From NCBI GenBank assembly GCA_944375905.1, contig CALWAS010000027.1, positions 57,679 to 121,678 of the forward strand: DNA of 64,000 nucleotides, written 5' to 3'. The position numbers and the translations under genes were made by a program. Source of the stretch: an uncultured Bacilli bacterium (GTDB lineage Bacteria; Bacillota_I; Bacilli_A; RFN20; CAG-826). Shown in pieces: positions 17,372 to 64,000 of the stretch (positions are counted from its first letter, which is position 1; each line of letters starts with the position of its first letter). The notes beneath the pieces are model-generated. The model was not told the DNA's origin and ran no database searches. It saw nothing but the letters and a program-made list of their open reading frames with translations.

Positions 17372-17576
17372 GGGGTGTTCCTTTCTTATCAGAAATGTAA
17401 CGCCTCAGAGCCATTTGTCACTAGAAAATTTAATGAATTTCCAATATCAGCCTATTTGATATTTACAGTGTAAAGATTACCAAATGGCGATTAACACCGA
17501 AGACTTTTGATATATCGATGCAAAATCGCCTGAATCGAAAGCAAAAAAGAGATGTCGAGACAAGACAAATGTTACT

Positions 17577-21044: not shown

Positions 21045-21073
21045 GGAGAGATTGTAACGAGCGAAAAGATGGC

Positions 21074-43407: not shown

Positions 43408-44301
43408 TCAATCCCCGTCGAAATCCTTTTCATGGGAAAGGAAGAAATCCCTTAGGAGAACGACGTTCGCTAGCTCCGTCCACTTCTTCTTCCGCGGTGG
43501 CTCTTCGTCGAGGTCGATGACGCTCGCGCCCTCCATCGATAGGAAAATCGGGGAATGGGTCGCGACGAGGAGCTGGGCTTTTTCATGAAAGGCCGCATGG
43601 CGCATGATGTCCGCGACTTTGGCTTGATAAGGAAGGGAAAGGCAATTTTCCGGCTCGTCGATCAAATAGAAGCCATCCTTCTCGAGGATGGAAAGGAAGA
43701 TGTCTACGGCGCTTTCCCCATTGCTTCTTTCTTCCTCGAGATTGCCGCCGTGCCTAAGCCCATAGGAGCGGGCCGTCATCCCTAGGGCCTCGTTTCGCTC
43801 CCGGAGGTCGTCGAGATCGTCGAGGGAATCGAAATGATAAGCGGAACGGGCTAGCTCGCCCCGCTTCTTCCTAAACTCGTCGCGCCGAATCCTCGTGGCC
43901 CTGTTCTCTTCCCTCCGGGCGGCTATTTTCCTAAAAAGGCCATCGGAGGTAAGAAAGGCCCGGGTCCTTGGCGCATCGAGCTTGTCCCCATAGGCATCGA
44001 CGGCCCGCCTTGCTTCCATCATTCCCGCGAAGTCGTGGAAGGGATGATAGGCCCTTCCCTCGAGCTTGTAGGTCGTGTCGTCGTAAAGGGGGACGTCGCG
44101 CTCGGCCTTGAGAAGGAGGCCGATGAGGGAAAGGAGAGTCGACTTTCCGCTGCCGTTATTGCCATAAAGGACCGTGATGTCGCTTAAAGGCAGCTCGAAA
44201 AGGCGCTTCCGCCAGAAAAGGGGAAAGGGATAGGTATCGACGAGATCGTAGGAATCGAGTTCCTCTTCGCTCGGGAAAAGAATCGAGGAATAGTAGACCA
44301 T
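43408..44301 (-). CDS. Standalone ABC-type/AAA ATPase (AAA_21-like), third gene of the sbcDC operon
   Basis: 297 aa. Walker A GNNGSGKSTLL, Walker B FYLIDEPENCLS and H-loop VATHSP. It starts 2 bp after the sbcC stop. Confidence 0.7.
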   Translation of the reverse strand: MVYYSSILFPSEEELDSYDLVDTYPFPLFWRKRLFELPLSDITVLYGNNGSGKSTLLSLIGLLLKAERDVPLYDDTTYKLEGRAYHPFHDFAGMMEARRAVDAYGDKLDAPRTRAFLTSDGLFRKIAARREENRATRIRRDEFRKKRGELARSAYHFDSLDDLDDLRERNEALGMTARSYGLRHGGNLEEERSNGESAVDIFLSILEKDGFYLIDEPENCLSLPYQAKVADIMRHAAFHEKAQLLVATHSPIFLSMEGASVIDLDEEPPRKKKWTELANVVLLRDFFLSHEKDFDGD

Positions 44302-44303
44302 GG

Positions 44304-47300
44304 CTAGGCGATGAGTTTCAAAAGGCTCCTGCCCTCTTCTTTCCGCACCTCGATCTTCTTATCGATGTCCGCCGCAAGGGCTTCGACATGGGAGATGATG
44401 CCCACCATTCTCGTCCCGTCCCGGGTCAAACCGCGGACGGTCTTGATGACGGCGTGGAGCGATTCTTCGTCGAGGGTCCCGAAGCCCTCGTCGATGAAGA
44501 GGCAATCGATTTCGCTAGCCCCGGAAGAAGAGGCGATCACGTCGGAGAAGGAAAGGGCGAGGGCCAAGGCGGCTTTGAAGCATTCGCCGCCCGAGAGAGT
44601 CCTGATGGGGCGGGATTTGCCGCTCAAGGCATCGATTACATCGATGTCGAGGGCAGTATTGCTGCCGATATTGGCCCGCCAATCATGGGGAATGAGCTGG
44701 TAAGTGCCGCCGCACATCGAGGAAAAGCGTTCGGATGCCCGTTCGACGATCGATGAAAAGACAGCCGATTGGTAATACGTCTCGAAATCGACCTTCGGAG
44801 CCCGCGGATAGCGGCCTTTGGCCACGAGGTAAAGGGTATTGACCGCCTGGAATTCCTTAAGGGTGGCTTTGTTGTTCTCGAATAAGGAGAGAAGCGCGGA
44901 ATAGATTCCTTCGGCGGAGGAAAGAAGGGACGAATACTTGCTCGTTTCCTCAATGGCCCTATCGTGGGCCGCCTGGAGCTCGTCCAGTTTGGCCTTCAAG
45001 GCGGCAAGGTCTAAGGGAAGAAGCTTGTCGTAGCCGGCTTTGAGGTGTTCCTCCTTAGCCTTCTGGCAAGAAAGCAGAGCCGCGGCATAAGCTTTGGTTT
45101 CCTCCTTCGAGGCGTCCACTTCTCCTTTTTCCCGAGAGGCGGCCGCTTCGGCCTCTTTAACGTCAATGAATCCGCTATCTTTCAATGTCTTCTCGTCTTC
45201 GAAGACGGCAGCGTTCAGCTTTGCTTTCACCTCGTTTACGGACGTCTCGTCCCGGCTTATGTCGTTTCGAAGGACTTCGAGATCGCTACCGGCTTTCCGG
45301 AATCGGGCTTCGATGGCTTTCGCCTCCTCGGCATTGCGTTCCCGTTCATCCTTTAGAGAGGAAAGGCACGCTTCGACTTCTTCCTTTTCGTGCCCCTCCA
45401 AGCTTTTTTTGACTTCCTGAAGCTTTGACTTCTCGGCCGAAAGACCGGCAATGGCATCCGAAAGGGCACTACGAAGGGCCGGGAGGGCGGCCTCTTTCTC
45501 CGCGGCTTCCTTCTCAAGAAGGGCGGCTTGTTTAAGATCCGATTTCTCTTTAGCCAGGGCCGACTCGACCGCGACCCGATTCTTTTTGAGCGCGGACAAG
45601 GCAATGTCGTTAGCTTCCTTCGCCTCGGCGAGGGAGTAGGGGGCCTCGTCGATCGTTATCTTCTTTCCGATAGCCTCTTCAAACGAACGGAGGAAAGACT
45701 CTTCCTTGGTCTTGGCCTTTCCTTCCGCCGATGAAGCCGCCGACGCGGCTTCCTGGGCCTTTGTTTCCTTTTCAGCCAAGTCGGCCTTGCACTTTTCAAG
45801 GCTTTCCTTGCTTACTTCCCCCGAGGGAACAGCCGGGGAGGGATGGGAGAGGGATCCACAGACGGGACAAGGCGAGCCTTCGACCAGGGCCGTCGCCAAA
45901 AGGCCGGCCTGGGCATCGATGAAGCGTTGGAAAAGGGATTGATACTCCTCGCTCTTATTGGCCTGTTCTTCCCTAGCCTTTAGATAAGCCTTTCGGCAAT
46001 CGGCGGCTTCTTTTTCGGCCTTGAGGAAAGACGCGTGGTCCCCGGCAAGCGATTCCAGGTTCTTTTTCCGGCCGTCGAGATCCTTCTTTTGGATATCGAG
46101 AGCGGCAAGATCGGCCTGGAGGGTGGACCCTTCGTGTTCTTTCCGGAGGCGCGAGGCGTTTTCCCGCCTCGAAGACACTTCTTTTTCCTCTTGATCTAGG
46201 GTCTTCCGGGCCGCCGCCTCGCTTTCTTCCTTATCCTTGAGGGCTTTCTCGAGGAGGGGAATCGACTCAAACGCGGCCGAAAGCAGCTTGAGCGCAGATT
46301 CCTCTTTCACTATTTCGTCGTTCCTCGCATTCAAAGCATTGCGCTTTTCGTTCTCTTGAGCGGCTTTTTGCAGGGCGTTTTCGGCTTCGGGAAGGCTTTT
46401 TTGGTGCCTTTCCAAAAGCTTCTTGGCCTCCGTTAGCCCCTTTTCGGCCTCTAGGCGCGCCCTGTGGGAGCGAACGACAAGAAGGGCCTTGTCGTAGAGG
46501 GCGTTTTCTTTTTCCTTCCGGTCCATTTCCTCCTTCTTGGAAAGAAGAAGGGATAGATCGGACTCGTTTTTCAAATAAGCTGCGCGGTTTTCCTCGTCCT
46601 TCTTGGCCTTCTCGAAGATGGCCTCGGCTTCCTTTTCCTTCTCATGGGCTTCGCCTTGGGCGGCGACGAGGCCAGCCTGGCGTTCCCTTTTCCCCGCCAG
46701 GTCTTTTTCGATGAGGGGGAGAAGCTCTTCGAGGAAATAGCATGGGCGACCATTGTCGTCGCCGGTCCAGACAAGGCGGGAAGAAAGCTCGCTATCGTCG
46801 CTTTGGTATTCCCGGCACTTGGCATCGATGAGGGTCGATTCCCCGCTTAGGCGGGTAGATAGTTCATTGGCTCTCTTTCCGAGGGCATCCTCGAAGTCAG
46901 CAAACGGCTTCGTATGGAGGACGTCGCGGAGAAGGGCGCTCCGATCGCTCGACTTGGCGGTGATGAGATCCATGAATTTCCCTTGGGGGATCATGGAGGT
47001 GATTACGAACTGCTCTTTGCTAAGGGAAAGGATCTCGAGGATCTTCTTGTTGACTTGCCGGAGTGCCGTGATGGGATGCTGGAGGTCACCGCCGGAAAGG
47101 AGGGCCGTCGGCTCTTGGTAAACGGTTTTGTTCCCCCGCTTCGCCTTTCTCTCCTGACCGGGCTTGCGTTCTACCTCGTAGATTTTTCCGTGCGCGGAAA
47201 AGGAGAAGCGAACATAGGTCTCTAGATCGTCGGGGGCGGAAAGGGAGCGGAGATCGTCAGCTTTCCTGAGCCCGCCCGACGAATCGCCATATAGGGCAAA

Positions 47301-47444
47301 GCAGATAGCGTCGAAGATCGTGGTCTTCCCGGCTCCCGTCTCCCCGTCGATGAGGAAAAGTGAGCCATCGAAGAGACTAAAGTCGATTTCCGTCTTCTTC
47401 TCGTAGGAGAGGAAGGCCTGCATCGTGAGTTGGAGCGGCTTCAT
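44304..47444 (-). CDS. sbcC: SbcC/Rad50-family exonuclease ATPase
   Basis: 1046 aa. N-terminal MKPLQLTMQAFLSYEKKTEIDFS...LFLIDGETGAGKTTIFDAICFALYG, a long coiled coil with a central CPVCGS zinc hook, and C-terminal LSGGECFKAALALAL...LFIDEGFGTLD. Confidence 0.9.
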   Translation of the reverse strand: MKPLQLTMQAFLSYEKKTEIDFSLFDGSLFLIDGETGAGKTTIFDAICFALYGDSSGGLRKADDLRSLSAPDDLETYVRFSFSAHGKIYEVERKPGQERKAKRGNKTVYQEPTALLSGGDLQHPITALRQVNKKILEILSLSKEQFVITSMIPQGKFMDLITAKSSDRSALLRDVLHTKPFADFEDALGKRANELSTRLSGESTLIDAKCREYQSDDSELSSRLVWTGDDNGRPCYFLEELLPLIEKDLAGKRERQAGLVAAQGEAHEKEKEAEAIFEKAKKDEENRAAYLKNESDLSLLLSKKEEMDRKEKENALYDKALLVVRSHRARLEAEKGLTEAKKLLERHQKSLPEAENALQKAAQENEKRNALNARNDEIVKEESALKLLSAAFESIPLLEKALKDKEESEAAARKTLDQEEKEVSSRRENASRLRKEHEGSTLQADLAALDIQKKDLDGRKKNLESLAGDHASFLKAEKEAADCRKAYLKAREEQANKSEEYQSLFQRFIDAQAGLLATALVEGSPCPVCGSLSHPSPAVPSGEVSKESLEKCKADLAEKETKAQEAASAASSAEGKAKTKEESFLRSFEEAIGKKITIDEAPYSLAEAKEANDIALSALKKNRVAVESALAKEKSDLKQAALLEKEAAEKEAALPALRSALSDAIAGLSAEKSKLQEVKKSLEGHEKEEVEACLSSLKDERERNAEEAKAIEARFRKAGSDLEVLRNDISRDETSVNEVKAKLNAAVFEDEKTLKDSGFIDVKEAEAAASREKGEVDASKEETKAYAAALLSCQKAKEEHLKAGYDKLLPLDLAALKAKLDELQAAHDRAIEETSKYSSLLSSAEGIYSALLSLFENNKATLKEFQAVNTLYLVAKGRYPRAPKVDFETYYQSAVFSSIVERASERFSSMCGGTYQLIPHDWRANIGSNTALDIDVIDALSGKSRPIRTLSGGECFKAALALALSFSDVIASSSGASEIDCLFIDEGFGTLDEESLHAVIKTVRGLTRDGTRMVGIISHVEALAADIDKKIEVRKEEGRSLLKLIA

Positions 47445-48583
47445 TGCGCATTCCTCCCGAGCGTCTCGTCGAGCAATTCGGAGACGGTTTCCCCTTGAGT
47501 CTCATCCATCCTCGAACCGGTCGTTTCCTCATAGAAGCGGGCGAATAGCTCCTTTGGGTCGATGGAGGCGACGTCGATGTCCCCACCCTTCGAATAGGAA
47601 GAGGCAATTCCCTTGTACTCGAGGGAGACGGCCAAGGGAAAGCGGGACTTCAGCCGGGCCATCGGCTCGTCTTGGTAGGTAGTGTCCAAGAGGGTGAAAT
47701 AGACGTAGTCGTTCCGGTGGTCTTCCCTTTTGAGAAGCTCCTCGAGATATCCTTCCATCCTAACCACGTCGTGGAGGGGGACAAAGGGGGCTTCTTTGAC
47801 AAAAACGCCTTTTTCGCTTATGTCAACGATACTGAATGTTTTCTTGTATTTGGCCTCTTGGCGGTCGAATTTTAGAAGGGCTCCCGGATAACGCATCTTC
47901 TCGCTTAGGGGGATGGCCTTGTGGATATGGCCGAGCGCCACGTAGTCAAAGGGGGCGAAGACGCTTCCCGGAAGAACGTCGCTTCCCCCGATCGATAGCT
48001 CGGCCCCGGACATCGCCGGCTGGGTCTCGCTGCCCGAGCCAGTAAGCATTCCCGAGGAAGGAAGGACGCTTTGGTGGGCGACGAGGACGTGCGGATGATC
48101 GCTAGCAAGATCCATTCGGGAAACGATGTCCCCTACCGCTTCCTCAAGGCTCCCATAGTCGACGCCCATCTCGTCTTTTGCAACATGGTAATTCACGTAG
48201 GGAAGTAAGAAAAAGTCGACCGCATTGACCGTAATCGGAGCCAAAGAGTCCTTGATGTCCGTCACGATGTAAACATGGTGGCGGGCGGCCAACCCGGATA
48301 AGTAATGGAGTTTTTCCGGGGAGTCGTGGTTTCCGCTGATCATAAGGAGCGGAATTCCATTCTCCTCAACGTCCGCGATAAAAGAATCGAGGATTTCCAT
48401 CGAAAGGGAGGAGGGAGCCGCCGAATCGTAGATGTCCCCGGCGACGACGATTGCATCGAGCTTCTCCTTCAGAGCCAAGTCGAGGGCTTCCTTGAGGGCA
48501 TGGCGATGCTCAAGCGAAAGGTCGTAGTTTCCAAGTTTCTTCCCAAGGTGGATGTCCGAAAGGTGAAGGAAGCGCATGGTCAT
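47441..48583 (-). CDS. sbcD: SbcD/Mre11-family nuclease
   Basis: Likely start MTMRFLHLSDIHLGKK; the ORF-track start at 48685 adds 34 Cys/Arg-rich codons. Phosphoesterase motifs are DIHLG, GDIYD, GNHD and GHIH. Its stop overlaps the sbcC start. Confidence 0.9.
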   Translation of the reverse strand: MTMRFLHLSDIHLGKKLGNYDLSLEHRHALKEALDLALKEKLDAIVVAGDIYDSAAPSSLSMEILDSFIADVEENGIPLLMISGNHDSPEKLHYLSGLAARHHVYIVTDIKDSLAPITVNAVDFFLLPYVNYHVAKDEMGVDYGSLEEAVGDIVSRMDLASDHPHVLVAHQSVLPSSGMLTGSGSETQPAMSGAELSIGGSDVLPGSVFAPFDYVALGHIHKAIPLSEKMRYPGALLKFDRQEAKYKKTFSIVDISEKGVFVKEAPFVPLHDVVRMEGYLEELLKREDHRNDYVYFTLLDTTYQDEPMARLKSRFPLAVSLEYKGIASSYSKGGDIDVASIDPKELFARFYEETTGSRMDETQGETVSELLDETLGRNAQ

Positions 48584-48713
48584 ATGATATGGCCTTTCGA
48601 GGCAGCTTCCCATGGATGAGCGAAAAAAGGGACAAAATCGTTTTTGACAAATCCGGCATGGGAAAAACGAAAAGCCGGTCTTCAACGTAGATAGCCGGCT
48701 TTTGCAGGAGATT

Positions 48714-53080: not shown

Positions 53081-55204
53081 ATGAAGAAACGGAGTCTGGG
53101 CCCCATCGCCCTCACCCTGGCTTTCCTTCTTTCCGGTTGCTCGTTAGGCGACGGCTCGTCTTTTTCAAGCGGCCTCGGCTCGAGCGCGGAAAGCTCGCTT
53201 TCAAGCGAAGAAACATCATCCCAATCGAGTCCGAGCCAAGACTCGTCCTCATCGAGCGAAGAGACCCCTTCCTCCGAGAGCCAGCCCTCGACCAGCGAAG
53301 GAACCTCCTCTTCTTCGGAGAGCCAGCCATCGACCAGCGAAGGAACTTCTTCCTCAGAGAGTCAGCCCTCGAGCAGCGAGAGCGCTTCCGATTCCGAAAG
53401 CTCGTCGGAACATGGCGAAACTTCTGAGGGCGAAGAAGAAGGGCAGAATGCCGCTATTCAAAAGGCCATCGAGGCATTTGATCTCACGATGGGGGCTAAG
53501 GGATTTATCTCTGCTAAGTCGGAAGCCCCAGCCGGTCCTGACGGTGAAGTAGTCCCCGTGGAAATGAGGCTCGACATAGAGGCTACCTACCAGCGGGGAT
53601 CCGACGTAGCCTTTGCCTCAAGTGTCATTCAGACGACAAGCATGGGTGATCAGTCCATGACCTCCGGCCTAAACGAAGAAGGCCCGTATTTCCGCGATGA
53701 AAGGGGACTATCCTATCGGGAAGGCCATAAGATGGACGGGACCGTCGAAAGATTCTATGACGTTCCCTTCCCTTCCTTCGATTCAGCCTACATGTCGCCC
53801 TTCTCGATCCTCACTGTCCGGGACCTTATTTTCGTCGAGGACGGGGTATTCAGGCTCCCGAAAGGAATTGCTAGCGCGATTTCCTACGCCTTCATCGACC
53901 AGGCATTCGGCGGCCCAGCCATCAATCGAGGACCCGACGAGATGCTCCTCTATCTCGACGGGGAACGTTTCTCCCGCGTCGAATATGAGATACCCTACCC
54001 GGAAATGGGCGCTGCCTACGTGGCTTCGTTCGATCTTTCCTATGAAGATGAGGTGGAGGCCATTTCCCATCTCGACGATCTTTCGGGCCTTGAGCCGACG
54101 GAAGATTCGATTCGCCTAGAGAAAGCTTTCGAAGCTCTCTCCTCCCCCATTGCCTTCGACATTGAATGGGGAAGCGGCGACGTCACGAGCTATTATCGCG
54201 GCGAGAACGCGGTTTATTTCTCCTATCATGGCGAACCGCGTTACTACGCCCCGATGAAAGAGGGGGACGAATTGCTATACCCGTACTACGGGGAGCCTGG
54301 GTTTGGCGAATTCGACACCAATTCCCCGGTTTCGATCGATCGTCTCGTGCCGAACGGCAACGGGATCAACACCACTCTCTTCAGCCCCGTCGATGGCAAG
54401 GCGTCGACTTACCGCATCGAAGGAAGCGACCTCGCCGAAGCCGTTTTCGACCTCCTCGTTCCTGCCGATGTCCTGTCCTTCTACCTGGGCGGCCTCGAAG
54501 CAGTCGAGGTGGTCCTCAATGACGATGGGACAGTCGATATGGTCGATTTCCTTTCCTCCTCTTCTTCCCACGTCTTAATTCGCTACAGGCAATACGAGGG
54601 CATGCCATCCGGCTATGACGACAGCCCCATCTTGAATATCGAATTGCTCGGACTCTCCAATTTCCTCGACTCCCTCGTCGAAGGGCCGGACGGGATTGCC
54701 TACACGGTCAAAAGCCCGTTCCTTGAGGGGTCGCTTTCCCTTTATCTCACCGAACGCTCGCTCTTCCTTGAGGGAAACGGGCGCAAAAGCTGGTATACGG
54801 CCGTCGAGGGAATGGATGGAATCCAAGAACTGGACCTCTATTCCGGGACACCCGCTATAACCGGGGCCTCCTTTGACTCGATGGATCACCTGCTTCCGGG
54901 CTTCTTCGTGGACAAAAATCCCATTTATTCCTTCTTCCCCATAAGCAAATCGGCATATGAATCCGATAGCATCGACGCGATGAGCTTCCTCTTCCCCGCC
55001 CCGCAAGTCCTCAACGACATGGGGTTCAACGTCTACGACGTCGTCTCTCTCAAAATAGAGATAGACGCCTCAAACAATTCGTTCATCATCTCCGGACAGG
55101 ACGAGAGCGGCACGACGGTCGTCGACGTCTACGGGGAGAAAAAGCCGCGGGAGGACGGCTTGGACGACAGCGTTCCATATCCTCTCCCGGATAAGGAAGG
55201 ATAG
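53081..55204 (+). CDS. Lipoprotein with a serine-rich linker (707 aa), function unknown
   Basis: MKKRSLGPIALTLAFLLSGCSLGDG followed by a roughly 100-aa S/E/T-rich linker with internal SSESQPSTSEGTS repeats. Confidence 0.7.
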   Translation: MKKRSLGPIALTLAFLLSGCSLGDGSSFSSGLGSSAESSLSSEETSSQSSPSQDSSSSSEETPSSESQPSTSEGTSSSSESQPSTSEGTSSSESQPSSSESASDSESSSEHGETSEGEEEGQNAAIQKAIEAFDLTMGAKGFISAKSEAPAGPDGEVVPVEMRLDIEATYQRGSDVAFASSVIQTTSMGDQSMTSGLNEEGPYFRDERGLSYREGHKMDGTVERFYDVPFPSFDSAYMSPFSILTVRDLIFVEDGVFRLPKGIASAISYAFIDQAFGGPAINRGPDEMLLYLDGERFSRVEYEIPYPEMGAAYVASFDLSYEDEVEAISHLDDLSGLEPTEDSIRLEKAFEALSSPIAFDIEWGSGDVTSYYRGENAVYFSYHGEPRYYAPMKEGDELLYPYYGEPGFGEFDTNSPVSIDRLVPNGNGINTTLFSPVDGKASTYRIEGSDLAEAVFDLLVPADVLSFYLGGLEAVEVVLNDDGTVDMVDFLSSSSSHVLIRYRQYEGMPSGYDDSPILNIELLGLSNFLDSLVEGPDGIAYTVKSPFLEGSLSLYLTERSLFLEGNGRKSWYTAVEGMDGIQELDLYSGTPAITGASFDSMDHLLPGFFVDKNPIYSFFPISKSAYESDSIDAMSFLFPAPQVLNDMGFNVYDVVSLKIEIDASNNSFIISGQDESGTTVVDVYGEKKPREDGLDDSVPYPLPDKEG

Positions 55205-55216
55205 GAGGAAAGCACA

Positions 55217-57127
55217 ATGAAAAAGGAAAAACTACTGGTCGTATCGCTGCTGCTTCCCTTGCTTTCGGCTTGCGTCGGCGGGGTCGGAAACGACCGTCGC
55301 CTGCCAGCCCAGGGGGAAACAGGCGACTCCGGATCCATTCCGGCGGATCCAATCGGAATCGACGAAGCGCTCGCTTTGTTCAACGATGACCTGAGCCTTT
55401 CGCTCACCTTTTCCCTCGGAGTCGAGGGGAATTCCACCACGGAAACGGCTTCCTTTTACTATGACGAGACCGCTTCCCGTTTCGATCTCAATAAGGGGAG
55501 CGACTCGACGGTTTTCTCCAACGACGCCGGCCTAGCCGTTACCTATGAGGTCGGAATCGACAATGTGGTGACCGAACAAGCCATCTCCTCGCCCCTCGTC
55601 TCCTTCGATTACTACTACGCAAACCCGTTTGCCAGGATCGGAATCGAGGATTTGGGAGAGGAAAAGGAAGGCGTTTATCCCCTTAGTGGGACGATGGCTT
55701 CCTATGTCCTTAGCCGCCTTCTCATACCGGCAAACGGCTTCCGCCTCATGCCGCTTGGGACATCGACGGGATCCATCGCCTTAAGCGACGGCGGCTTTTC
55801 TTCCTTCTCCCTCGCCGGTACGGCCTACATAACGATTGCCGGCGCTTCCGTCCCCGGCATCATCGACATCGCGATTGCCGGCGACTTCTCCTACGAAGAA
55901 CTGCAAATCGAGCCGCCAAAGGGCATCGAAGGCGAACTCACCGAGGATCTAGCGGCCCTCGGCCGTGCCTTCGAGGAAATGAGAACCAAAAACTATGGGG
56001 TTTCCCTTCTCTCAAAAGGGACTCCCGTCCTCCGGGCCGACATCTTCGAAAAGGTGACCTGCCTTACTTTTGGCGAAAAGTGGAAAAACGATGCCTACCT
56101 CGTGAGGACGGACAAGGACATTGAACGTTACGAATTCGACGAGGCGGGAGGAGAGTACATCCACGTCGCCGGCTTCTCTGGCGAAGGCGATGGACTCCCC
56201 CTCATCCGCCCGCGTTTCTCGCTTACGCCTCTTCTTTTCGAGGGTACCATCGAGGGCGGATTCTCCTTTAAGGGAACGCAAAATCAGCTTTTCGAGGTGC
56301 TTGAGGACATTCTCCCGAACAACCTGGGCGGCGACGATATCCAAATCAACGCCGATTTCGATTCGCTTCGCATTCTTCTCGATGCCGACGGATCGCTCAG
56401 CTCCATCGACTTCACGAAGGAAGGCGAAGCCTCGCTCTCGCTTATCTTCGACGAGCCGCAGAGCTTCGCTTACGGAATCAGTTTGGACGACTTCGTGAGC
56501 GCGGCGGAGAGGGGCGAGCCCCTGCCCCGCCCGAGCGAGGATCTGGCCGCGAAATACGTCGACCAGCTGCAAAGCCCAAACAGCCATTTCGCCGTCTATT
56601 CGCCCGACAATACCCATTTCTTCGAGTTCTACTTCGGCTCCGACTTCCTCTTCCAAATCGAAGGACAAATGGATGGGTCGTCGAACTACTACCGCCTCTA
56701 TGAGCCTAGTGAGGACGGAAAATGCAACGTTCATAGTTTTTACGATGAAGGAAGCGGGCTCGTGCACGAAAATTCGACGGTATACGACAACTCGTTCGAG
56801 GACATGCTTTTACCTGATCCCTCCTTCCTTGAAGGACGGCAAAGCCCATACTACGAGTGGCTCGACGAGTCGGAAGTCGCCCTCTATGGCATCGATCTGA
56901 ATCGCTACTTCGGCCGGGCCGTCTCCGACTCCGGCGCCGTCAAGCAGAGCGAAGCAACGACGATGGTCATCGGAATAGACCCATCGAGCCAAGCCATGAC
57001 CCATCTCGAGATGAGGATTCCCGGCATGAACGTCGAGCCAAGGCTCAGCTTCAAGTGCGATACCTTCTCCGAGCTTCCTCTTTCCTATCAGGAAATCGTC
57101 TCCATCCTCGAAGGAACGAGCAACTGA
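55217..57127 (+). CDS. Lipoprotein (636 aa), function unknown; operon partner of the 707-aa lipoprotein
   Basis: [22 protein letters not shown] (lipobox). It starts 12 bp after the preceding gene. Confidence 0.7.
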
Positions 57128-57210: not shown

Positions 57211-59718
57211 ATGAGAAAGCCAATCGAAGTACCGGACCATATCGAAATAAGGGGCGCGCGCGTCCATAACCTCAAGGGGATCGATGTCGACATCCCCCTC
57301 AACCGGCTCGTCGGGATTGCCGGCGTCTCCGGCTCGGGGAAATCCTCGCTCGCCCTCGGCGTCCTCTATAGCGAAGGCTCGCGCCGCTATCTCGAGGCCC
57401 TATCGACCTATACGCGGAGGAGGATCAGCCAGGAAGGGCGGAGCGACGTCGATCTCGTAAGGAACGTCCCCTCGGCCATTGCCCTCCATCAGCGGCCCAA
57501 CGTCCCGGGCATCCGCTCGACCTTCGGGACGATGTCGGAGCTCAATAACATCCTCCGCCTCATCTATTCCCGGCTCGGGTGCCACCTCTGCCCGAATGGG
57601 CACCACTGCCCGCCCTCGATGGACGTCGCCCTCATGAAGGAGACGGTTTGTCCCGTCTGCGGGGCCTCTTTCTACGGCCCCTCGGCCGAGGAGCTTGCCT
57701 TCAACTCGGCCGGGGCCTGCCCCTCGTGCGGGGGAACCGGCTTCAAGCTCACGGTCGACCGTTCAAGCCTCGTGCCCGACGAGAACCTGAGCCTAGAAGA
57801 AGGCGCGGTCGCCCCGTGGAACTCCCTCATGTGGAGCCTCATGGTCGACGTCGCCCGGGCGATGGGCGTCAGGACCGATGTCCCTTTCAAGGACCTAAGC
57901 GAGGAAGAAAGGCGGATCGTCTACGACGGGCCGATGGAAAAGAAGCACATCCTCTACAAATCGAAGAAGGGCGATGACTTCGCCGAGCTCGACTTCACCT
58001 ACTATTCGGCCGTCAATACCGTCCTCAATGCCCTCTCGAAGGCCAAGGACGAAAAGGGCATGAAGCGGGTCAGCCGCTTCCTCAAGGAAGAGCCCTGTCC
58101 CGCTTGCCATGGGACGCGGCTTTCGGAAAGGGCCCGTTCGTCCCTCGTGAGGGGAATAAGCCTCGACGCGGCCTCGGAAATGCCGCTGGGCCAGCTCATC
58201 GATTGGGTAAAGGGCATTCCCGAATCGATGCCCGAGGCGATGAGGGAGATGGCGAGCGGGCTTACGAGGGAATTCCTCCATATGGCTAAGCGCCTCGTCG
58301 ACCTCGGGCTCGACTATCTATCCCTTTCGAGAGCCGGAAGCACCCTTTCGACCGGGGAACGCCAAAGGGTCGAATTGGCCCGGGCCGTCCGGAGCGAGAC
58401 AACCGGGGTCCTCTACGTCCTCGACGAGCCATCGATCGGCCTCCATCCCCATAATGTCGACGGCCTCTTCCTTCTTTTCGACGACCTTCTTTCCCAGGGC
58501 AACTCCATCGTCATGGTCGATCACGACGAGCGGATCCTCGCCCGGTGCGACTATCTCGTCGAACTCGGGCCGAAAGCCGGGAAGGAAGGCGGGGAAATCG
58601 TCGCGAAGGGGAATCTAGCGGAAGTGGAAAGCGATCCCCGTTCCATGATCGGCCCCTTCCTTTCGGGGAAGGAGGAAACCGTCGTCCGGAAAAGGGCGGA
58701 AAAAGAAAGGATGTTCGAAAACGGGGAGATCCACCTTTCGACCGGGGCCATCCATACCGTCCGTCCCCTCGACATCCATATCCCCAAAGGACGCCTCGTC
58801 GCGGTGACGGGAGTGTCGGGATCCGGGAAGACGACGATGGTTCTCGAGTCGCTCGTGCCGGCTTTGCGGGCGAAAATCGCGGGGACTCCCCTCCCAAACC
58901 ATGTCATTTCCATCGAGGCGGAAGGCCTAAGGAGGGTCAATCTCATCGACGCGACCCCGATCGGGGCGAACGTCCGTTCGACGGTCGCGACCTATAGCGG
59001 GGTCCTCGACGACTTGAGGAGCGCCTACGCGAGGACGGAAGGGGCCAAGTCCCTCGGGCTGAAGGCCGGGGACTTCTCCTACAACAGCGGCTCCCTCCGC
59101 TGCCCCGAATGCGACGGGACGGGAACGATCACCCTCGACGTCCAGTTCCTCCCGGACATGGACATAGCGTGCCCGAAGTGCCATGGGGGCCGTTACAAGG
59201 AAGAGGCGAGGAAAGTCAAATGGCCGGACGGAAACGGGCTTTCGATCGTCGAGATGATGGGCCTAACCGTCGACGAGGCCCTCGAGAAGACGAAAGGCCT
59301 CCGCAAGTGCCACGAAAAACTCGAAGTGCTCTCCAAGCTCGGGCTTGGCTACCTGACCCTCGGGGAGGCAACCCCTTCCCTTTCCGGCGGCGAGGCCCAG
59401 CGCCTCAAGCTGGCCTTCGAGATGGGACGCCTTCAAAACGATGCCCTCTTCGTCTTCGACGAGCCGACGATCGGGCTCCACCCCCTCGACGTGAGGAGAC
59501 TGCTATCCGTCTTCGACTCGCTTTTAAAGATGGGGGCCTCCATCGTCGTCATCGAGCACGACCTCGACTTCATAGCGAATAGCGACTACGTCGTCGACCT
59601 CGGGCCCGGGGGCGGCGTCTATGGCGGGCAGCTCGTCTACGAGGGGCCGACGGAAGGAATATTGGACGCGAAGCAAAGCCTGACGGCTCCTTATTTAAAA
59701 GAAGTCCTCCAAAAATAG
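57211..59718 (+). CDS. UvrA-like ABC ATPase (class II UvrA paralog, 835 aa)
   Basis: Likely start [48 protein letters not shown] (the track start at 56857 adds a basic-rich 118 aa). Zn-finger Cys pairs (CPVCGASF...CPSCGGTG; CPECDGTG...CPKCHGG), two ABC modules ([27 protein letters not shown]). Shorter than canonical UvrA (about 940 aa). Confidence 0.85.
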
Positions 59719-60162
59719 CAAAGTCCCTCATTTCCATGAAGAAAAGTAGGTTTTGCGGGAAAAATCTCTGCGTTCTATGGGCGTTTTAACTAATCTCAGG
59801 CAGCTTGGCCTTTCGACCGTCCGCCTTTTTTGACGGCTGTTCCATTGTCGGACGGAGGCGATGGCGAAACCTCTTCCCATGGTTGCTCATGCCGCATGCA
59901 AGTCAATTTGAAAGCTGCTTTTTCAAGGAAGCGGATTATACCCTTTATGTATACGTAGGTCACGTTTTAGGCCTTTTGGAAAAAATCCTTGTAAATCGCC
60001 CGTTTTCTTCGCCAAAATGCCATTTTGCTTAACGAATTGCATTAAACTTTTCTTTTAGATTGACGTTTTATCGGGTTTTCTTTCGATTTTGTTAAGGCGC
60101 TTAAGGAACCGATAATCGGAAATCGCGAACGTCAATCGTCCTTTGGGAAGGCTCTTGGGCTA

Positions 60163-60195
60163 GGAAAAAGAAAGCCCCTTCAAAGGGGGCTTGGC
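60163..60195 (-). terminator. Rho-independent terminator after the MukB-like gene
   Basis: Minus-strand GCCAAGCCCCCTTTGAAGGGGCTTTCTTTTTCC. Confidence 0.45.
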
Positions 60196-60213
60196 TGAAG
60201 TCCAAAACCGCTA

Positions 60214-63200
60214 TCAGTCGGCGGCCCGGCTCCGGATGATGGGGGAAGGAACGACCCGGCTCCCCTGCTTCACCAAGGCGATCTTGGTGTCGACGTAGGG
60301 GGCGATGGCCTTCGCCTGGTTTCCCGGGACGGCGAGAATCGGCTGGATCGAGAGTTCCTGGAAGTAGCGCATCATGCTCTCGACGTGGGACTGGTCCATC
60401 TTCTCGAAGGCTTCGTCGAACATGACGAGGCAACCCGGGGAAGTGCGGCCGTATCCGGGGCGGCAGAGCTGATCGAAGCTCGCGGCGATGATGACGTAGA
60501 ACGGGGTCTGTGTCTCGCCGCCGGACTTCGACTTGCTGATCTCGGAGAAGCGGTAGGTCTTGCCGTTCTTGTCGCGGATCTTGATGTCGTAGTCCATGAA
60601 GTTCCGGTAGTCGGTGAAGCTCTGGAGGAGCTTTTCGTCGGCATCCTCGCTCGTGAAGCGGTCGTAGAGGCTATTCATGAGGGCCTCGTTCTTGCTCGAG
60701 AGCTGCTCGGTGAAGAGGGTCGTCTGGTCGTAGTCCTGCTTGCTCGCGAAGATCTCGTAGTAATCCTTGAAGGTCGAGTCCTTCGAGGCCGAGACGACGA
60801 ATTCGTAAACGTCGCCCTCGGAGCCGAAGGGACGGCCGGCGAGGATTTCGTTGAGCTTCTTGATGTGGCGCTTCTCTTCCTCGATCGATTCGCGGATCTT
60901 GGCGATGTAGTCGTTCTGGAAGCTTTCGGCCGCCTTCTTCCTTGCCCGTTCGAGCTTGTCGATGTTCTCGACGAGGTCGTGGTTGGCGACTTTGTCGTAT
61001 TCCTTCACGAAGTGCGGGAGGGCGTCGAGCTCGCTCGTCTCGTCGAAGGAGAACTTCCGGATGTAGCTCGCCATGAGGGTGCGGAGGTCGCGCTCAAGGC
61101 GGGAGAGCTCCTTCGAGAGGCGCTCGACCTGGGCCTCGGCCTCCTTGGAGGCCATTTCCTTGTTGGACTTCCAGTCCTCGTAGGCGAGCTTGAGGCCTTC
61201 CTTCTTAAGGAGTTCGTCTAGCTCCTTTTCCTTGCTTGCCACGTCCCCCTGGAGGGAGGCGAGGCGGCTCGAGGCGGCCCCGAGGGAGGAAGAAGTGGCC
61301 TTGATGGCGTCGGCGGCCTTGCTCGAGGCGGCGACGGCCTCTTCCCGCTCGAGGCGGAGGGCCGAGAGGCGGCTCGACTTGGCGATGAGGTCGCTATCTT
61401 CCCCTTCGAGGGAAGATTTCTTGGCTTTCAGGGCCTCGAGGGACCGGCGGGCCGTCTCGTAAACGGCCCAGTGGTTGTCTTCCTCGAGGAGGGAGGAAAC
61501 GTAGCTGTGGTCGCTTTGCTCGACGAGGCGGTAGGTGGAACGGGCTTCCTCCTCTTCCATCTCGATGTCGCTCGAAAGCCCAGCCAAGGTGCTTTCGACT
61601 TCCTCGAGGCGGAGGCGGCGGGCGCTCGCGCCGATGTAGGGCGCTTCCTTTTCGCCATGCGTCTTCCTGACCGAGCGGAAGCCGTAGTAGAGGCCGTCGA
61701 TCGTCGCTCCCTCGTCCTTTCCGACGAAGAGGAGCGGATCGTCCACCGCCTCAACCGTCCCGAGGAGGAGATCGAGGTAGCGTTCGGCGTCGTAAGTGAG
61801 GGCCGTGAGCTTGGCGGCGAGGCTACTATCCTTATGAACGGCGTTTTCCGGGAGCCTCGCGAGGTCGACGATGCCGATCCCGGCGAACTGCTCCTTGTCC
61901 CTAGCTTCGTTGAGGGCCCTAAGAGCCGTCTCGAAGTGGCTTTCGTCGACGAAGAGGTCGAATCTCCTCTCGGCGAGGAGGGATTCGATGGCGTAGCGCC
62001 AGTTCTCCTCGCCTTCCTTGATGTCGATGAGCTCGGCGAAGGGACGGGCATCGATTTCGTCGCCCGTCTCGTCCTTCACTTTCTTCACGATGTAGGCGCG
62101 GAGCTTCGTCATGGCCTCCGGATAGACGGTCCTTCCGGCCTCGAGCTCTTCCTTCTCCTTTTGGAGGGCGAGGGCTTCCTTCTTGTCGCTCCTCAGGCGG
62201 TTTCGCACTTCGTTATAGGAAGCGGAAAGCTCGTCTTTCTTCTTCTTGAGGGCGCTTTGATAAAGCGGCAGGTATTTCCTTAGTCCCTCGTAATCGCGGT
62301 GCTCGAGATAGTCGAGGAGGGAGTTCCCGACCGAGAGGGAATGCTCGAGGCTCGCTTCCTTGGCGAGGCGCGCCTCGTAGGAATGGACGCGGGACTCGGC
62401 GTCGGAAAGCTTCTTCTCGCCTTCGGCGATCTGCTCGTCGATGGTGCGGAGCTCGAGGTAGGAGGAATCGTTTTCGAGGGCGTAGATGTCGCGTGAGACC
62501 CGTTCCTTGTCCGCCTCGGCTTTCTTTTGCTCTTCCTCGAGGTCCTTCTCGCGGCGCTTGAGCGATTCAATCTCGGCCCCGAGCTTCTCCTTCTCCTCCT
62601 CGATTGAGGAGGAGGCGAGGTTGAGGGCGAGGGCCTGGTAAAGGGAGGCTTCCTTCTTGCTCTTGTTATAGAGATCGGCCTTCTCGGCGATCGAGCGGAG
62701 GGCTTCCTTCTTCGCTTCCTCGTTCTTCACGGTGCGGGTGAGCTCGTTGAGCGAGTGGACGACGGTCCGCATGTTGGCGATGTTCACGTCCTTCTCCGGC
62801 ATGAGGAAGCGGTAGACGAACTCGTGGACGTCGTCGATCGGCTTGAAGGAGACGGCCTTCGGGAGAAGGTCGAGGTACTTCTTGCCGTCGATCTGGAGGA
62901 TGTCGTTATAAAGGGTCGCGCGGACTTTCTTCTGGGAATCGCCGAGGAGATGGAAGGTCCCTTCCGGGGCTTTCTGCTCCATGAGGCGGTAATTGAGGAT
63001 GTTCCCGTCCTCGTCTTTGAATAGGGAATCGTCGAGGACGTGGTTCGGGACGTAATAGAAGGTCTTGAGGATGTCGCGGACCCCTTCCTGGATCTCGAGG
63101 ACGACCCCGATGAGGAAGGATTCGAGCGTCTTTTCGTCGAGGAACTGGAGGCAGATGTGCGAAATGATGTTCGGGTCGCTCCGGAGATAGGGGTGGCTCG

Positions 63201-63432
63201 ATTCGCCCGTCCGGCCCCGCATGTAGGTCTCGACGGTCCGGTCGGTCTTTTCGTTGGCGGCCGCGTTGAACTTCGATTGGTCGCCGCCGGAAAGGAGATA
63301 GTAGATGGCGTCGATGAGCGAGCTCTTGCCAGAGCCGTTGTCGCCCGCGACGAGGACGGAGCCGTCCACCGGGATGCTCTCGTCGTAGAATCCGTGCCAA
63401 TTGATGAGGCGGATATCAGTCAGCTTCTTCAT
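60214..63432 (-). CDS. MukB-like SMC ATPase (Wadjet JetC / MksB family)
   Basis: 1072 aa. N-terminal MKKLTDIRLINWHGFYDESIPVDGSVLVAGDNGSGKSSLIDAIYY (MukB/MksB LINWNGF-type head), long coiled-coil K/E/L-rich arms, and C-terminal SGGETQTPFYVIIAASF...LVMFDEAFEKMD (signature plus Walker B). Confidence 0.75.
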   Translation of the reverse strand: MKKLTDIRLINWHGFYDESIPVDGSVLVAGDNGSGKSSLIDAIYYLLSGGDQSKFNAAANEKTDRTVETYMRGRTGESSHPYLRSDPNIISHICLQFLDEKTLESFLIGVVLEIQEGVRDILKTFYYVPNHVLDDSLFKDEDGNILNYRLMEQKAPEGTFHLLGDSQKKVRATLYNDILQIDGKKYLDLLPKAVSFKPIDDVHEFVYRFLMPEKDVNIANMRTVVHSLNELTRTVKNEEAKKEALRSIAEKADLYNKSKKEASLYQALALNLASSSIEEEKEKLGAEIESLKRREKDLEEEQKKAEADKERVSRDIYALENDSSYLELRTIDEQIAEGEKKLSDAESRVHSYEARLAKEASLEHSLSVGNSLLDYLEHRDYEGLRKYLPLYQSALKKKKDELSASYNEVRNRLRSDKKEALALQKEKEELEAGRTVYPEAMTKLRAYIVKKVKDETGDEIDARPFAELIDIKEGEENWRYAIESLLAERRFDLFVDESHFETALRALNEARDKEQFAGIGIVDLARLPENAVHKDSSLAAKLTALTYDAERYLDLLLGTVEAVDDPLLFVGKDEGATIDGLYYGFRSVRKTHGEKEAPYIGASARRLRLEEVESTLAGLSSDIEMEEEEARSTYRLVEQSDHSYVSSLLEEDNHWAVYETARRSLEALKAKKSSLEGEDSDLIAKSSRLSALRLEREEAVAASSKAADAIKATSSSLGAASSRLASLQGDVASKEKELDELLKKEGLKLAYEDWKSNKEMASKEAEAQVERLSKELSRLERDLRTLMASYIRKFSFDETSELDALPHFVKEYDKVANHDLVENIDKLERARKKAAESFQNDYIAKIRESIEEEKRHIKKLNEILAGRPFGSEGDVYEFVVSASKDSTFKDYYEIFASKQDYDQTTLFTEQLSSKNEALMNSLYDRFTSEDADEKLLQSFTDYRNFMDYDIKIRDKNGKTYRFSEISKSKSGGETQTPFYVIIAASFDQLCRPGYGRTSPGCLVMFDEAFEKMDQSHVESMMRYFQELSIQPILAVPGNQAKAIAPYVDTKIALVKQGSRVVPSPIIRSRAAD

Positions 63433-64000
63433 CGTCGTCCTCCTTCTCGCCCGCGCTGGACTTGGCCAAAAGGGCGATGCGCTGGTCGATCTCGTCGAAT
63501 TCCTCCTCGGGGACGAGGAGGGCGATCGAGGGGTAGATCTCCACCGTCGATTCCTCGCTTATCTCGCTCGGGCAATCGACGATCTTGTGCCGCTTGAGCT
63601 TCCGGAGCGCCTCCCGGTAATAGGAGATGCGCTGGCTCCCGGGGATCGGGCAGATGGCCTTCATTTCCTTGATGGCATCGCCGAGCGGGACGAGGATCTT
63701 GTCGCTCGAGGAGGCCTCGCGGGCCTTCTTGATGAACATCTTGCGGAGAACGAGGAGGAAGCAGGTCTCGAACTTCGAGAGGCGGACGCGGTTGCGCCCG
63801 GCCCGGTTGGCGATGTAGACGACTTCCTTCTCGCGGTCGACGCCGAGCTCGAAGTCGGCCATCGATAGGTAGGTCTCGAAGAGGGGGCGGTTGCTCACGA
63901 CGGCGAAATAGTCGCCGGCATCCTCCCCTTTCTTGCGGACGATGTAGGTGTCGCGGAGCAATTTGTCGACGAGGCGCGCGAACTCGTTGCGCCTCGTGTC
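63416..64000 (-). CDS. JetB/MksE-like small acidic partner protein (5' end possibly beyond the window)
   Basis: The ORF overlaps the MukB-like start by 17 bp. It has an acidic C-terminus (EKEDDDEEAD). The frame stays open upstream of the TTG listed as start to position 64000, so the true start may lie beyond the window. Its small size and acidic, kleisin-partner-like character match a JetB/MksE-type partner. Confidence 0.45.
   Translation of the reverse strand, partial: DTRRNEFARLVDKLLRDTYIVRKKGEDAGDYFAVVSNRPLFETYLSMADFELGVDREKEVVYIANRAGRNRVRLSKFETCFLLVLRKMFIKKAREASSSDKILVPLGDAIKEMKAICPIPGSQRISYYREALRKLKRHKIVDCPSEISEESTVEIYPSIALLVPEEEFDEIDQRIALLAKSSAGEKEDDDEEAD

What the first reader, a model, noticed from the sequence alone, without database searches (positions are those of the whole stretch)
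60214..64000. Partial Wadjet/MksBEF-type condensin locus (JetB-like + MukB-like JetC) with no JetD downstream
The MukB-like ATPase (LINWHGF head, SGGE signature) is overlapped at its start by a small acidic partner ORF. That ORF's frame remains open to the window edge, so it, and probably a JetA/MksF-like gene, continue beyond position 64000. Downstream of jetC there is only a terminator and a 450-bp AT-rich spacer, then the UvrA-like gene; no Toprim/JetD gene is present. The locus is therefore either a three-gene MksBEF condensin or a Wadjet system with non-canonical placement or loss of the nuclease subunit.
Basis: partly seen in the sequence, partly recalled or inferred. Interest (0 to 1): 0.55.

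Follow-up and report, generated by a model that had tools for sequence, protein, structure and literature searches.

The report
Wadjet SMC operon without its nuclease
This is the end of a three-gene jetABC operon, a Wadjet-type DNA-looping SMC complex, whose whole lineage of uncultured Bacilli has lost the JetD nuclease yet keeps the other three genes under strong selection, so it most likely acts as a nuclease-free MksBEF-like condensin rather than a plasmid-cutting defence system.

Summary
Window 60214-63432(-) encodes a 1072-aa type I JetC (PADLOC E 1e-225). Window 63416-64000(-) holds the last 194 codons of JetB (DUF4194), cut by the window edge.

Contigs from the same species (98.5% nt identity) show that a 463-aa JetA lies just beyond position 64000. 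No JetD is detectable in the 64-kb window or in any related locus, including a 209-kb contig with 10 kb on each side.

The JetD-less state is fixed in a monophyletic clade (JetC 64-100% identical; at least 68 member sequences in the collection). This clade is nested among type I systems that all carry jetD directly after jetC.

JetA, JetB and JetC stay intact, keep all ATPase motifs, and show dN/dS of 0.02-0.06 between close strains. The locus is therefore functional, not decaying.

The AT-rich spacer is not a jetD remnant. It is the junction of a 4.1-kb indel of two envelope-protein genes that other strains carry.

At least three further JetD-less JetABC groups turned up in metagenomes, two of them beside housekeeping genes.

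Best reading: a domesticated, nuclease-free, MksBEF-like loop extruder. This is a new member of a known kind. A JetD encoded elsewhere in the genome could not be excluded.

The parts
60214..63432 (-). jetC: a 1072-aa SMC-like ATPase (type I JetC, MksB/MukB-like). It has intact Walker A, signature and Walker B/D-loop motifs.
   Evidence: PDLC00519, E 1.3e-225, model positions 1-1081 of 1097; solved JetC chain 8as8, E 2.6e-25, full length; motif alignment.
63416..64000 (-). jetB: the 3' 194 codons of a 213-codon KITE subunit (DUF4194). It is cut by the window edge and overlaps the jetC start by 17 nt.
   Evidence: DUF4194, E 1e-22; JetB1, E 1.7e-36. The full 213-aa protein is seen in L005 and L098.
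60172..60192 (-). Intrinsic-terminator-like hairpin (7 pairs, 5 G-C) followed by a T-run. It lies about 20 nt after the jetC stop and probably marks the end of the operon.
   Evidence: The element is conserved in L005 (sequence shown).
59719..60213 (.). 495-bp AT-rich spacer (45% GC) in the position where jetD sits in relatives. It holds an indel junction at about 59921-59937. Strain L098 carries a 4.1-kb two-gene envelope-protein module there, and L005 carries a third variant.
   Evidence: There is no Rfam family at or near a gathering score and no JetD-like reading frame.
57214..59718 (+). Context only, not part of the system: a convergent 834-aa UvrA paralogue. It scores below the equivalog cutoffs and lacks roughly 110 residues relative to the UvrA model (class II-like). 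It serves as a synteny marker shared with L003 and L098.
   Evidence: (PRK00349 733 bits against cutoff 1147; protein 141-833 matches model 250-942).

Best explanation
The window holds the distal two-thirds of a three-gene operon, jetA-jetB-jetC. It descends from a type I Wadjet (JetABCD) system but has lost the JetD Toprim nuclease.

By homology to solved type I JetABC complexes, JetC dimers would be bridged by the kleisin JetA and bound by JetB KITE dimers. This would form an ATP-driven, DNA-entrapping loop extruder. Without JetD the complex cannot carry out the extrusion-then-cleavage reaction that defines Wadjet.

It therefore most likely acts as a nuclease-free MksBEF/MukBEF-like condensin that loads on and folds cellular DNA.

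Shown here:
- the identity of the three subunits;
- the absence of jetD in cis across the whole clade;
- intact catalytic motifs;
- strong purifying selection.

Inferred, not shown:
- complex formation and loop extrusion (from homology);
- the cellular role, whether chromosome organisation or non-nucleolytic handling of plasmids.
For: **Subunit identity.**

**JetA beyond the edge.** Same-species contigs L005, L006 and L098 carry it.

**No JetD.**
- tblastn found nothing.
- A JetD HMM with filters off hit nothing at E up to 10 in the window or in L001-L003 and L005-L009. It scored the seven JetD copies of the five JetD+ systems it was built from at E about 1e-204 to 1e-213.
- Downstream coverage is 60 kb in the window. 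L003 gives 10 kb on both sides, with no JetD by HMM. For L098 there is no JetD/Toprim Pfam family on any called gene within 10 kb on either side; L098 was not scanned with the JetD HMM.

**Loss is derived and clade-wide.**
- The lineages of the window (with L005, L006, L098), of L001/L007/L002 and of L003/L008/L009 have JetC 64-100% identical. They form one clade in NJ trees.
- Every sampled neighbour has jetD abutting jetC: L004, L010, L011, L013, L014 and L018.
- So do 60 of 80 metagenome relatives.

**Function is retained.**
- All ORFs are intact.
- dN/dS is 0.024 for jetC between the window and L005 (dS 0.049).
- dN/dS is 0.055, 0.050 and 0.036 for jetA, jetB and jetC between L007 and L001.
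- Walker A, signature and Walker B/D-loop motifs are invariant.

**The lineage is widespread.** The two 90%-identity clusters hold 12 and 56 members, on contigs up to 306 kb.

**Partial synteny points to vertical chromosomal inheritance.** The uvrA-like gene and the 327-338-aa upstream gene are shared between lineages.

**Precedent in the literature.**
[quoted passage not shown] **Independent JetD-less groups.** Other JetD-less JetABC groups sit directly beside ptsI, pepC, rsmE-miaB-like genes and groEL.
Against: - No complete genome of this lineage could be scanned, so a jetD gene elsewhere (in trans) is not excluded.
- JetC keeps the Leu-Phe (SLFTEQ, window residues 906-907). This aligns with E. 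coli JetC F919, the residue that docks into JetD (bioRxiv 10.1101/2023.11.03.565488). JetB keeps its N-terminal MSDR peptide, as in JetD+ relatives. Both are compatible with a JetD partner still existing. However, the LF is also present in MukB, which has no JetD.
- Deep-branch dN/dS is moderate (0.32-0.47).
- The neighbourhood is not purely housekeeping. A LlaJI-type restriction enzyme lies upstream in L007, and a candidate phosphorothioation cluster lies in the same window.
- No experiment shows what a JetD-less type I JetABC does in cells.
Confidence: 0.6

Rival explanations
1. This is a canonical Wadjet defence system with a split operon. JetD would be encoded elsewhere in the genome and join JetABC in trans to cleave circular plasmids.
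For: The JetD-docking Phe equivalent on JetC (LF at residues 906-907) is retained, and so is the JetB N-terminal peptide. The locus shares a window with other candidate defence genes, and L007 has a restriction enzyme upstream.
Against: In all 67 JetD-bearing loci examined, jetD directly follows jetC, so no split arrangement was seen. There is no JetD within 60 kb on one side (window) or 10 kb on the other (L098, L003). The retained LF motif is also present in MukB, which has no JetD, so it may be structural.
Confidence: 0.15
2. This is a decaying remnant. A Wadjet system recently lost jetD by deletion, and jetABC are non-functional leftovers on their way to pseudogenisation.
For: A structural breakpoint sits about 280 bp after jetC, and three different arrangements exist among near-identical strains. 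The site is therefore recombinationally active.
Against: The loss predates divergence to 64% JetC identity, yet all three genes remain full-length in every lineage. dN/dS is 0.02-0.06 between close strains, and the catalytic motifs are invariant. The indel concerns an envelope-protein module, not jetD, and no jetD fragment is detectable.
Confidence: 0.03
3. JetD was replaced by another effector. The two genes that follow jetC on the same strand in L003, L098 and L002 would be the new effector. They encode a small protein of about 150-240 aa and a large Big_2/Hint protein of about 1130 aa.
For: The pair occupies the JetD position on the same strand in three lineages of the clade.
Against: Both proteins begin with hydrophobic signal or anchor segments, and the large one carries Big_2 (Ig-like) and Hint domains. 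They look like envelope proteins. They evolve far faster than JetC: 27% identity between L003 and L098, against 64% for JetC. They are absent from the window and from L005, although jetABC there is intact and under selection. A terminator-like hairpin separates them from jetC. They have no PADLOC hit.
Confidence: 0.04
4. This is nuclease-free immunity. JetABC alone would still recognise small circular DNA by loop extrusion and restrain it by entrapment or compaction, interfering with replication or segregation without cleavage, by analogy with Smc5/6.
For: In type I systems JetABC is the sensor, and it stalls on plasmids in a defined state without JetD (bioRxiv 10.1101/2023.11.03.565488, read). 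The genes keep strong constraint outside a clearly housekeeping context.
Against: In the systems tested, all four subunits are needed for plasmid restriction (PMC10586767). In C. glutamicum, mksG deletion phenocopies mksB deletion (PMC10123090). There is no direct evidence here.
Confidence: 0.15

Closest known systems
Type I Wadjet / JET nuclease (JetABCD; E. coli GF4-3, P. aeruginosa PA14; equivalent to MksBEFG/EptABCD)
   Same: JetA, JetB and JetC are clear type I family members. The gene order is A-B-C, with overlapping B/C reading frames. JetC aligns over its full length to the solved JetC structures 8as8 and 8dk2, and its ATPase motifs are intact. The nearest relatives are complete JetABCD operons.
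   Different: The defining fourth subunit, the JetD Toprim nuclease, is absent in cis throughout the clade. The extrusion-cleavage reaction cannot be carried out by the genes present.
MksBEF three-gene condensin (P. aeruginosa MksBEF; mycobacterial MksB)
   Same: It is a three-gene kleisin-KITE-SMC operon without a nuclease. [quoted passage not shown] It is chromosomally encoded and maintained by selection.
   Different: Sequence affiliation is with type I Wadjet of Firmicutes rather than with the proteobacterial or actinobacterial Mks lineages. Pfam MksE matches only weakly (E 0.025, 15.4 bits against a cutoff of 27). This is therefore an independent loss event. No chromosome-organisation phenotype is known for it.
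MukBEF
   Same: The architecture is distantly homologous. The JetC C-terminal head aligns to MukB heads (E about 1e-8), including the LF motif of the head-proximal region.
   Different: MukB_N is below the Pfam cutoff (16.6 against 23 bits). JetC is about 400 residues shorter than MukB (1072 against 1482 aa). The partner proteins belong to the JetA and JetB families, not MukF and MukE.
Smc-ScpAB
   Same: It is an SMC-kleisin-KITE loop extruder.
   Different: TIGR02168 SMC_prok_B scores 29.9 bits against a cutoff of 567. The partners are not ScpA and ScpB.

Membership tests
Wadjet type I (JetABCD) defence system | JetC: MukB-like SMC ATPase | tested here: met
   PADLOC JetC1 PDLC00519 (E 1.3e-225, full length). 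Solved JetC chain 8as8 (E 2.6e-25).
Wadjet type I (JetABCD) defence system | JetB: DUF4194 KITE subunit directly upstream of jetC | tested here: met
   PF13835 (E 1e-22, 81 bits against a cutoff of 32.7). PADLOC JetB1 (E 1.7e-36). The gene is truncated by the window edge; the full 213 aa are seen in L005.
Wadjet type I (JetABCD) defence system | JetA: kleisin (PF18982/DUF5716) upstream of jetB | tested here: met
   JetA is not inside the window. Same-species contigs L005, L006 and L098 (98.5% nt identity to the window) carry a 463-aa JetA, PF18982 E 8.4e-66.
Wadjet type I (JetABCD) defence system | JetD: Toprim/CAP nuclease (DUF2220/DUF3322/JetD_C) in the operon | tested here: not met
   There is no tblastn hit. 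There is no hit of a JetD HMM (filters off, six frames) in the window or in nine related loci (L001-L003, L005-L009), whereas the seven JetD copies of the five JetD+ systems the model was built from score E about 1e-204 to 1e-213. L098 was not scanned with the HMM, but none of its called genes within 10 kb on either side carries a JetD/Toprim Pfam family. A jetD gene elsewhere in the genome was not testable.
Wadjet type I (JetABCD) defence system | Restriction (cleavage) of small circular plasmids | not testable with these tools
   This needs a plasmid transformation or stability assay, or in vitro cleavage.
MksBEF-type three-gene condensin | Operon of kleisin, KITE and MukB-like SMC with no nuclease gene | tested here: met
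   jetA-jetB-jetC is followed by a terminator-like hairpin and then unrelated genes.
MksBEF-type three-gene condensin | Sequence membership in the MksE/MksB families as modelled in Pfam | tested here: inconclusive
   PF21980 MksE scores E 0.025, 15.4 bits, below the cutoff of 27. The Wadjet-named models fit far better. Mks and Jet families are homologous and the naming overlaps.
MksBEF-type three-gene condensin | Role in chromosome organisation or segregation | not testable with these tools
   This needs Hi-C, a deletion phenotype, or synthetic interaction with smc.
Smc-ScpAB / MukBEF housekeeping condensins | Match to the SMC or MukB equivalog/domain models at their cutoffs | tested here: not met
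   TIGR02168 scores 29.9 bits against 567. TIGR02169 scores 17.4 against 729. PF04310 MukB_N scores 16.6 against 23.

The most novel reading that the evidence does not exclude
This clade may be a comparatively young, still Wadjet-like intermediate in the proposed domestication route from plasmid-cutting Wadjet to housekeeping condensin (the route suggested for MksBEF and MukBEF). Its JetABC would have been re-purposed for chromosome folding, or for nuclease-free restraint of circular DNA. JetD loss would have been followed by altered constraint on the hinge, the part of Wadjet-I needed for obstacle bypass but not for loop extrusion. Together with the other JetD-less groups found beside ptsI, pepC, rsmE and groEL, it would show that such domestication has happened repeatedly in Firmicutes.
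Probability: 0.3. Interest if true: 0.65.

Novelty: new member of a known kind. Interest (0 to 1): 0.38.

Why it matters
Defence-system finders need all four Wadjet genes, so loci like this one go uncalled.

Reviews of SMC evolution propose that MksBEF and MukBEF arose when a Wadjet system lost its nuclease. That proposal rests on very old, highly diverged examples.

A clade whose JetA, JetB and JetC still score as bona fide type I Wadjet proteins, whose nearest relatives all keep JetD, and whose three remaining genes are under strong selection gives a close matched pair (JetD+ against JetD-). Such a pair allows a direct test of what changes when the nuclease goes. The questions include:
- Does JetABC alone fold the chromosome?
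- Does it still sense plasmids?
- Which interfaces relax?

On its own the locus is an expected variant, not a new mechanism.

Tried and rejected
1. **Exact look-up of the window's JetC.** It found nothing. A 99.8%-identical cluster representative, P0001, gave the extending contigs instead.

2. **JetB N-terminal 'IFDR' motif.** I tried to use this JetD-binding motif as a marker of JetD dependence.
   - JetB is too diverged from the solved PA14 JetB to map it. A single-sequence search gave no PDB hit, and a profile search gave only E 0.067 over the C-terminal part.
   - The N-terminal peptide (MSDR/MSDK) is equally present in JetD+ and JetD- relatives.
   - The test is uninformative.

3. **JetC 'larynx' Phe (E. 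coli F919).** It is retained as LF in the JetD-less clade, but also in MukB. It does not discriminate.

4. **Hinge relaxation as a signature of JetD loss.**
   - The hinge (residues 471-610) is 68% identical among the JetD+ sister group.
   - It is only 35% identical between the window and that group, and 57% identical within the JetD-less clade. This makes it the least conserved region within the clade.
   - The hinge/head conservation ratio is 0.73, the lowest of 10 clades. Two JetD+ clades come close, at 0.75 and 0.78.
   - The result is suggestive only.

5. **A jetD remnant or RNA element in the spacer.** None was found. The spacer turned out to be an indel junction.

6. **The downstream Big_2/Hint gene pair as a substitute effector.** Rejected: these are envelope proteins, fast evolving, and dispensable.

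7. **The UvrA-like neighbour as a functional partner.** It is a synteny marker shared with L003 and L098, but it is separated from jetC by variable inserts and is replaced in L005. No link is supported. Its PADLOC 'mad3' hit covers only the ABC ATPase half.

8. **Papers not held.** Deep et al. 2022 and Petrushenko et al. 2011 were unavailable. Statements about them come from reviews that cite them.


Full report
**1. What is in the window**

ORF listing and translation confirm a 1072-aa ORF at 60214-63432(-). A second ORF in another frame ends at 63416, overlaps the first by 17 nt, and stays open to base 64000.

The large protein has these matches:
- Pfam AAA_29 and SbcC_Walker_B.
- PADLOC JetC1 model PDLC00519 from end to end (E 1.3e-225).
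- The solved JetC chains of E. coli GF4-3 (8as8) and P. aeruginosa PA14 (8dk2) over its whole length.

The housekeeping models fail badly. SMC_prok_B scores 29.9 bits against a cutoff of 567, and MukB_N scores 16.6 against 23.

The partial upstream protein is DUF4194/JetB (Pfam E 1e-22; PADLOC JetB1 E 1.7e-36).

After the jetC stop comes a terminator-like hairpin (60192-60172). A 495-bp spacer of 45% GC follows, then a convergent 834-aa UvrA paralogue. That paralogue scores below the UvrA equivalog cutoffs and lacks about 110 residues of the model.

**2. Extending the locus**

The exact protein is not on record. A homologue search found a 99.8%-identical JetC (P0001) and relatives at 75% and 65% identity.

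Contigs carrying P0001 (L005, L006) match window 59931-64000 at 98.5% nucleotide identity. They show what lies beyond the window edge:
- the remaining 19 codons of jetB;
- a 463-aa JetA (PF18982, E 8e-66);
- a divergent 744-aa gene without domains.

A 209-kb contig of the same species (L098) gives 10 kb on each side. The operon is therefore jetA-jetB-jetC.

**3. JetD is absent, and not only here**

tblastn with the JetD of a relative finds nothing in the 64-kb window or in loci L001-L003 and L005-L009. A profile HMM built from five JetDs and run with all filters off over six-frame translations finds nothing there either. The seven JetD copies of the five JetD+ systems the model was built from score E about 1e-204 to 1e-213. 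L098 was not scanned with this HMM, but none of its called genes within 10 kb on either side carries a JetD/Toprim Pfam family.

The JetD-less loci form three lineages with JetC 64-100% identical:
- the window with L005, L006 and L098;
- L001, L007 and L002;
- L003, L008 and L009.

They form one clade in neighbour-joining trees.

Their nearest neighbours all have jetD abutting or overlapping the jetC stop. These are L004, L010, L011/L012, L013, L014/L015 and L018, with JetC 37-40% identical. The clade sits inside a larger set of JetD+ systems. The parsimonious reading is one loss on the stem of this clade.

**4. The three genes are maintained**

- All copies are full length.
- Between close strains dN/dS is 0.024 for jetC (window against L005; dS 0.049).
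- Between L007 and L001 it is 0.055, 0.050 and 0.036 for jetA, jetB and jetC.
- Deeper pairs give 0.32-0.47. dS there is only 0.55-0.83 by the NG86 method and may be underestimated at this divergence.
- Walker A, signature, Walker B and D-loop motifs are invariant.
- The two 90%-identity clusters contain 12 and 56 member sequences, on contigs up to 306 kb.

This rules out a decaying remnant.

**5. The spacer**

Comparison with L098 shows that the window lacks a 4.1-kb segment (L098 about 13512-17621). That segment encodes a 236-aa protein and a 1139-aa Big_2/Hint protein. Both begin with hydrophobic signal or anchor segments.

- The junction is at window 59921-59937 and shows AATC microhomology.
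- L005 carries a third arrangement from the same point.
- Homologous but very diverged pairs follow jetC in L003 and L002. The large protein is 27-52% identical between lineages, against 64% for JetC.
- They have no PADLOC hit. They are absent here and in L005, where jetABC is intact.

I therefore read them as envelope genes in a variable slot, not a replacement effector. The spacer holds no Rfam family at or near a gathering score.

**6. Could JetD act in trans?**

Two candidate markers of JetD dependence were examined:
- The JetC Phe that docks into JetD (E. coli F919; bioRxiv 10.1101/2023.11.03.565488) aligns with LF at residues 906-907, and it is retained. The same LF is present in MukB.
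- The JetB N-terminal peptide is retained in JetD+ and JetD- relatives alike. It cannot be mapped onto the solved JetB.

Neither marker discriminates. In all 67 JetD-bearing loci seen here, jetD directly follows jetC, so a split system would be unusual. I give this rival 0.15.

**7. A wider pattern**

A metagenome scan seeded with an alignment that deliberately included JetD-less sequences returned 80 loci. The resulting fraction is therefore biased.

- 60 loci have jetD right after jetC.
- 20 loci have no JetD hit, and 16 of these have at least 1.5 kb of downstream sequence.

The JetD-less loci fall into at least two further clades plus singletons:
- In one clade jetC is followed, sometimes with overlap, by ptsI or by aminopeptidase C and a DEAD-box helicase.
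- In the other clade it is followed by rsmE plus a MiaB-like radical-SAM gene, or by groEL.
- L016 and L090 are isolated cases.

Repeated JetD loss with retention of JetABC, often in housekeeping surroundings, fits the published proposal. That proposal holds that MksBEF, and perhaps MukBEF, are domesticated Wadjet systems (PMC10586767; bioRxiv 10.1101/2025.03.10.642339).

**8. A weak extra signal: the hinge**

- In the JetD+ sister group the JetC hinge (residues 471-610) is as conserved as the heads (68% identity).
- Between the window and that group it is 35% identical.
- Within the JetD-less clade it is the least conserved region (57%, against 82-83% for the heads).

[quoted passage not shown] Across ten clades, however, the hinge/head ratio of 0.73 is only marginally lower than that of two JetD+ clades (0.75 and 0.78). 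I record it as suggestive, not as evidence.

**9. Verdict**

The locus is a JetD-less, Wadjet-I-derived jetABC operon. It most likely works as a nuclease-free MksBEF-like loop extruder (confidence about 0.6).

It fails the membership test for a Wadjet defence system, because JetD was tested and not met. It fits the three-gene MksBEF kind by architecture. That kind is known, and the evolutionary route is already hypothesised, so novelty is 'new member of a known kind'.

Its value is as a close JetD- counterpart to JetD+ sister systems, useful for testing the domestication hypothesis. Interest 0.38.

Noticed in passing
window 2127-11537 (-): A co-directional five-gene run looks like an SspABCD/Dnd-type DNA phosphorothioation module with a helicase. 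Its genes are: a ResIII/SNF2 helicase (722 aa), a class-V aminotransferase or cysteine desulfurase (375 aa), a 1165-aa protein with no Pfam hit, DUF4007 (296 aa), and PAPS-reductase with a 4Fe-4S domain (584 aa). The assignment is from memory of the Ssp gene set, not tested against PADLOC.
   Followed up: no
window 59921-59937; L098 13512-17621; L005 8641-8991: There is a strain-level structural polymorphism about 280 bp downstream of jetC. The window joins directly to the uvrA-like flank. L098 has a 4.1-kb insert encoding a 236-aa protein and a 1139-aa Big_2/Hint protein, both with hydrophobic N-terminal anchors. L005 has a different convergent gene. The junction shows AATC microhomology.
   Followed up: yes
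L017, L026, L028/L029, L032, L034/L035, L041, L043 (clade A); L047-L051, L054, L055 and others (clade B): Two further clades of JetC relatives (26-32% identical to the window's JetC) lack JetD and sit next to housekeeping genes. In clade A jetC is followed or overlapped by ptsI, or by aminopeptidase C and a DEAD-box helicase. In clade B it is followed by rsmE plus a MiaB-like radical-SAM enzyme, or by groEL. They look like long-standing chromosomal three-gene condensins in uncultured Firmicutes-like genomes.
   Followed up: partly
L016 5001-8309 (sample ERZ17292900, the same sample as L008); L090 24-3308: These are isolated JetD-less cases. L016 has jetABC followed by an unknown 502-aa gene on the opposite strand and then pstSCAB. 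L090 is nested inside a JetD+ clade, so it is an apparently recent loss, and is followed by a DNA-alkylation-repair-like gene.
   Followed up: partly
window 61603-62022 (JetC residues 471-610, hinge): The hinge is as conserved as the ATPase heads among the JetD+ sister systems (68% identity). It is the least conserved part within the JetD-less clade (57%). It also holds 25 of the 63 positions that are invariant in the sister group but replaced in this clade. The hinge/head ratio of 0.73 is the lowest of 10 clades, although two JetD+ clades reach 0.75-0.78.
   Followed up: partly
window 57214-59718 (+): The UvrA paralogue is 834 aa. It aligns to UvrA models only in two blocks, with protein 141-833 matching model 250-942, and it scores below the equivalog cutoffs. 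It probably lacks the UvrB-binding region (class II UvrA-like). It is syntenic with jetABC in L003 and L098 but not in L005.
   Followed up: partly
window 43408-48685 (-): An SbcD (414 aa) and SbcC (1046 aa) pair is followed by a 297-aa AAA_21/AAA_15 ATPase. L001 also has a 1046-aa ORF 4 kb upstream of its jetA. Homology between the two was not checked.
   Followed up: no
window 53081-57127 (+) and 18393-21188 (-): Two adjacent large lipoprotein-like proteins (707 and 636 aa) have lipobox-like N-termini and a long Ser/Glu/Thr-rich repeat linker, with no Pfam hit. They are conserved next to the uvrA-like gene in L098. Separately, there is a 931-aa BspA-type leucine-rich-repeat protein.
   Followed up: no
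L007 314-1549: A LlaJI-type restriction endonuclease gene lies about 2.6 kb upstream of jetA in the 75%-identity lineage. The flank is therefore partly defence-like in that lineage.
   Followed up: no
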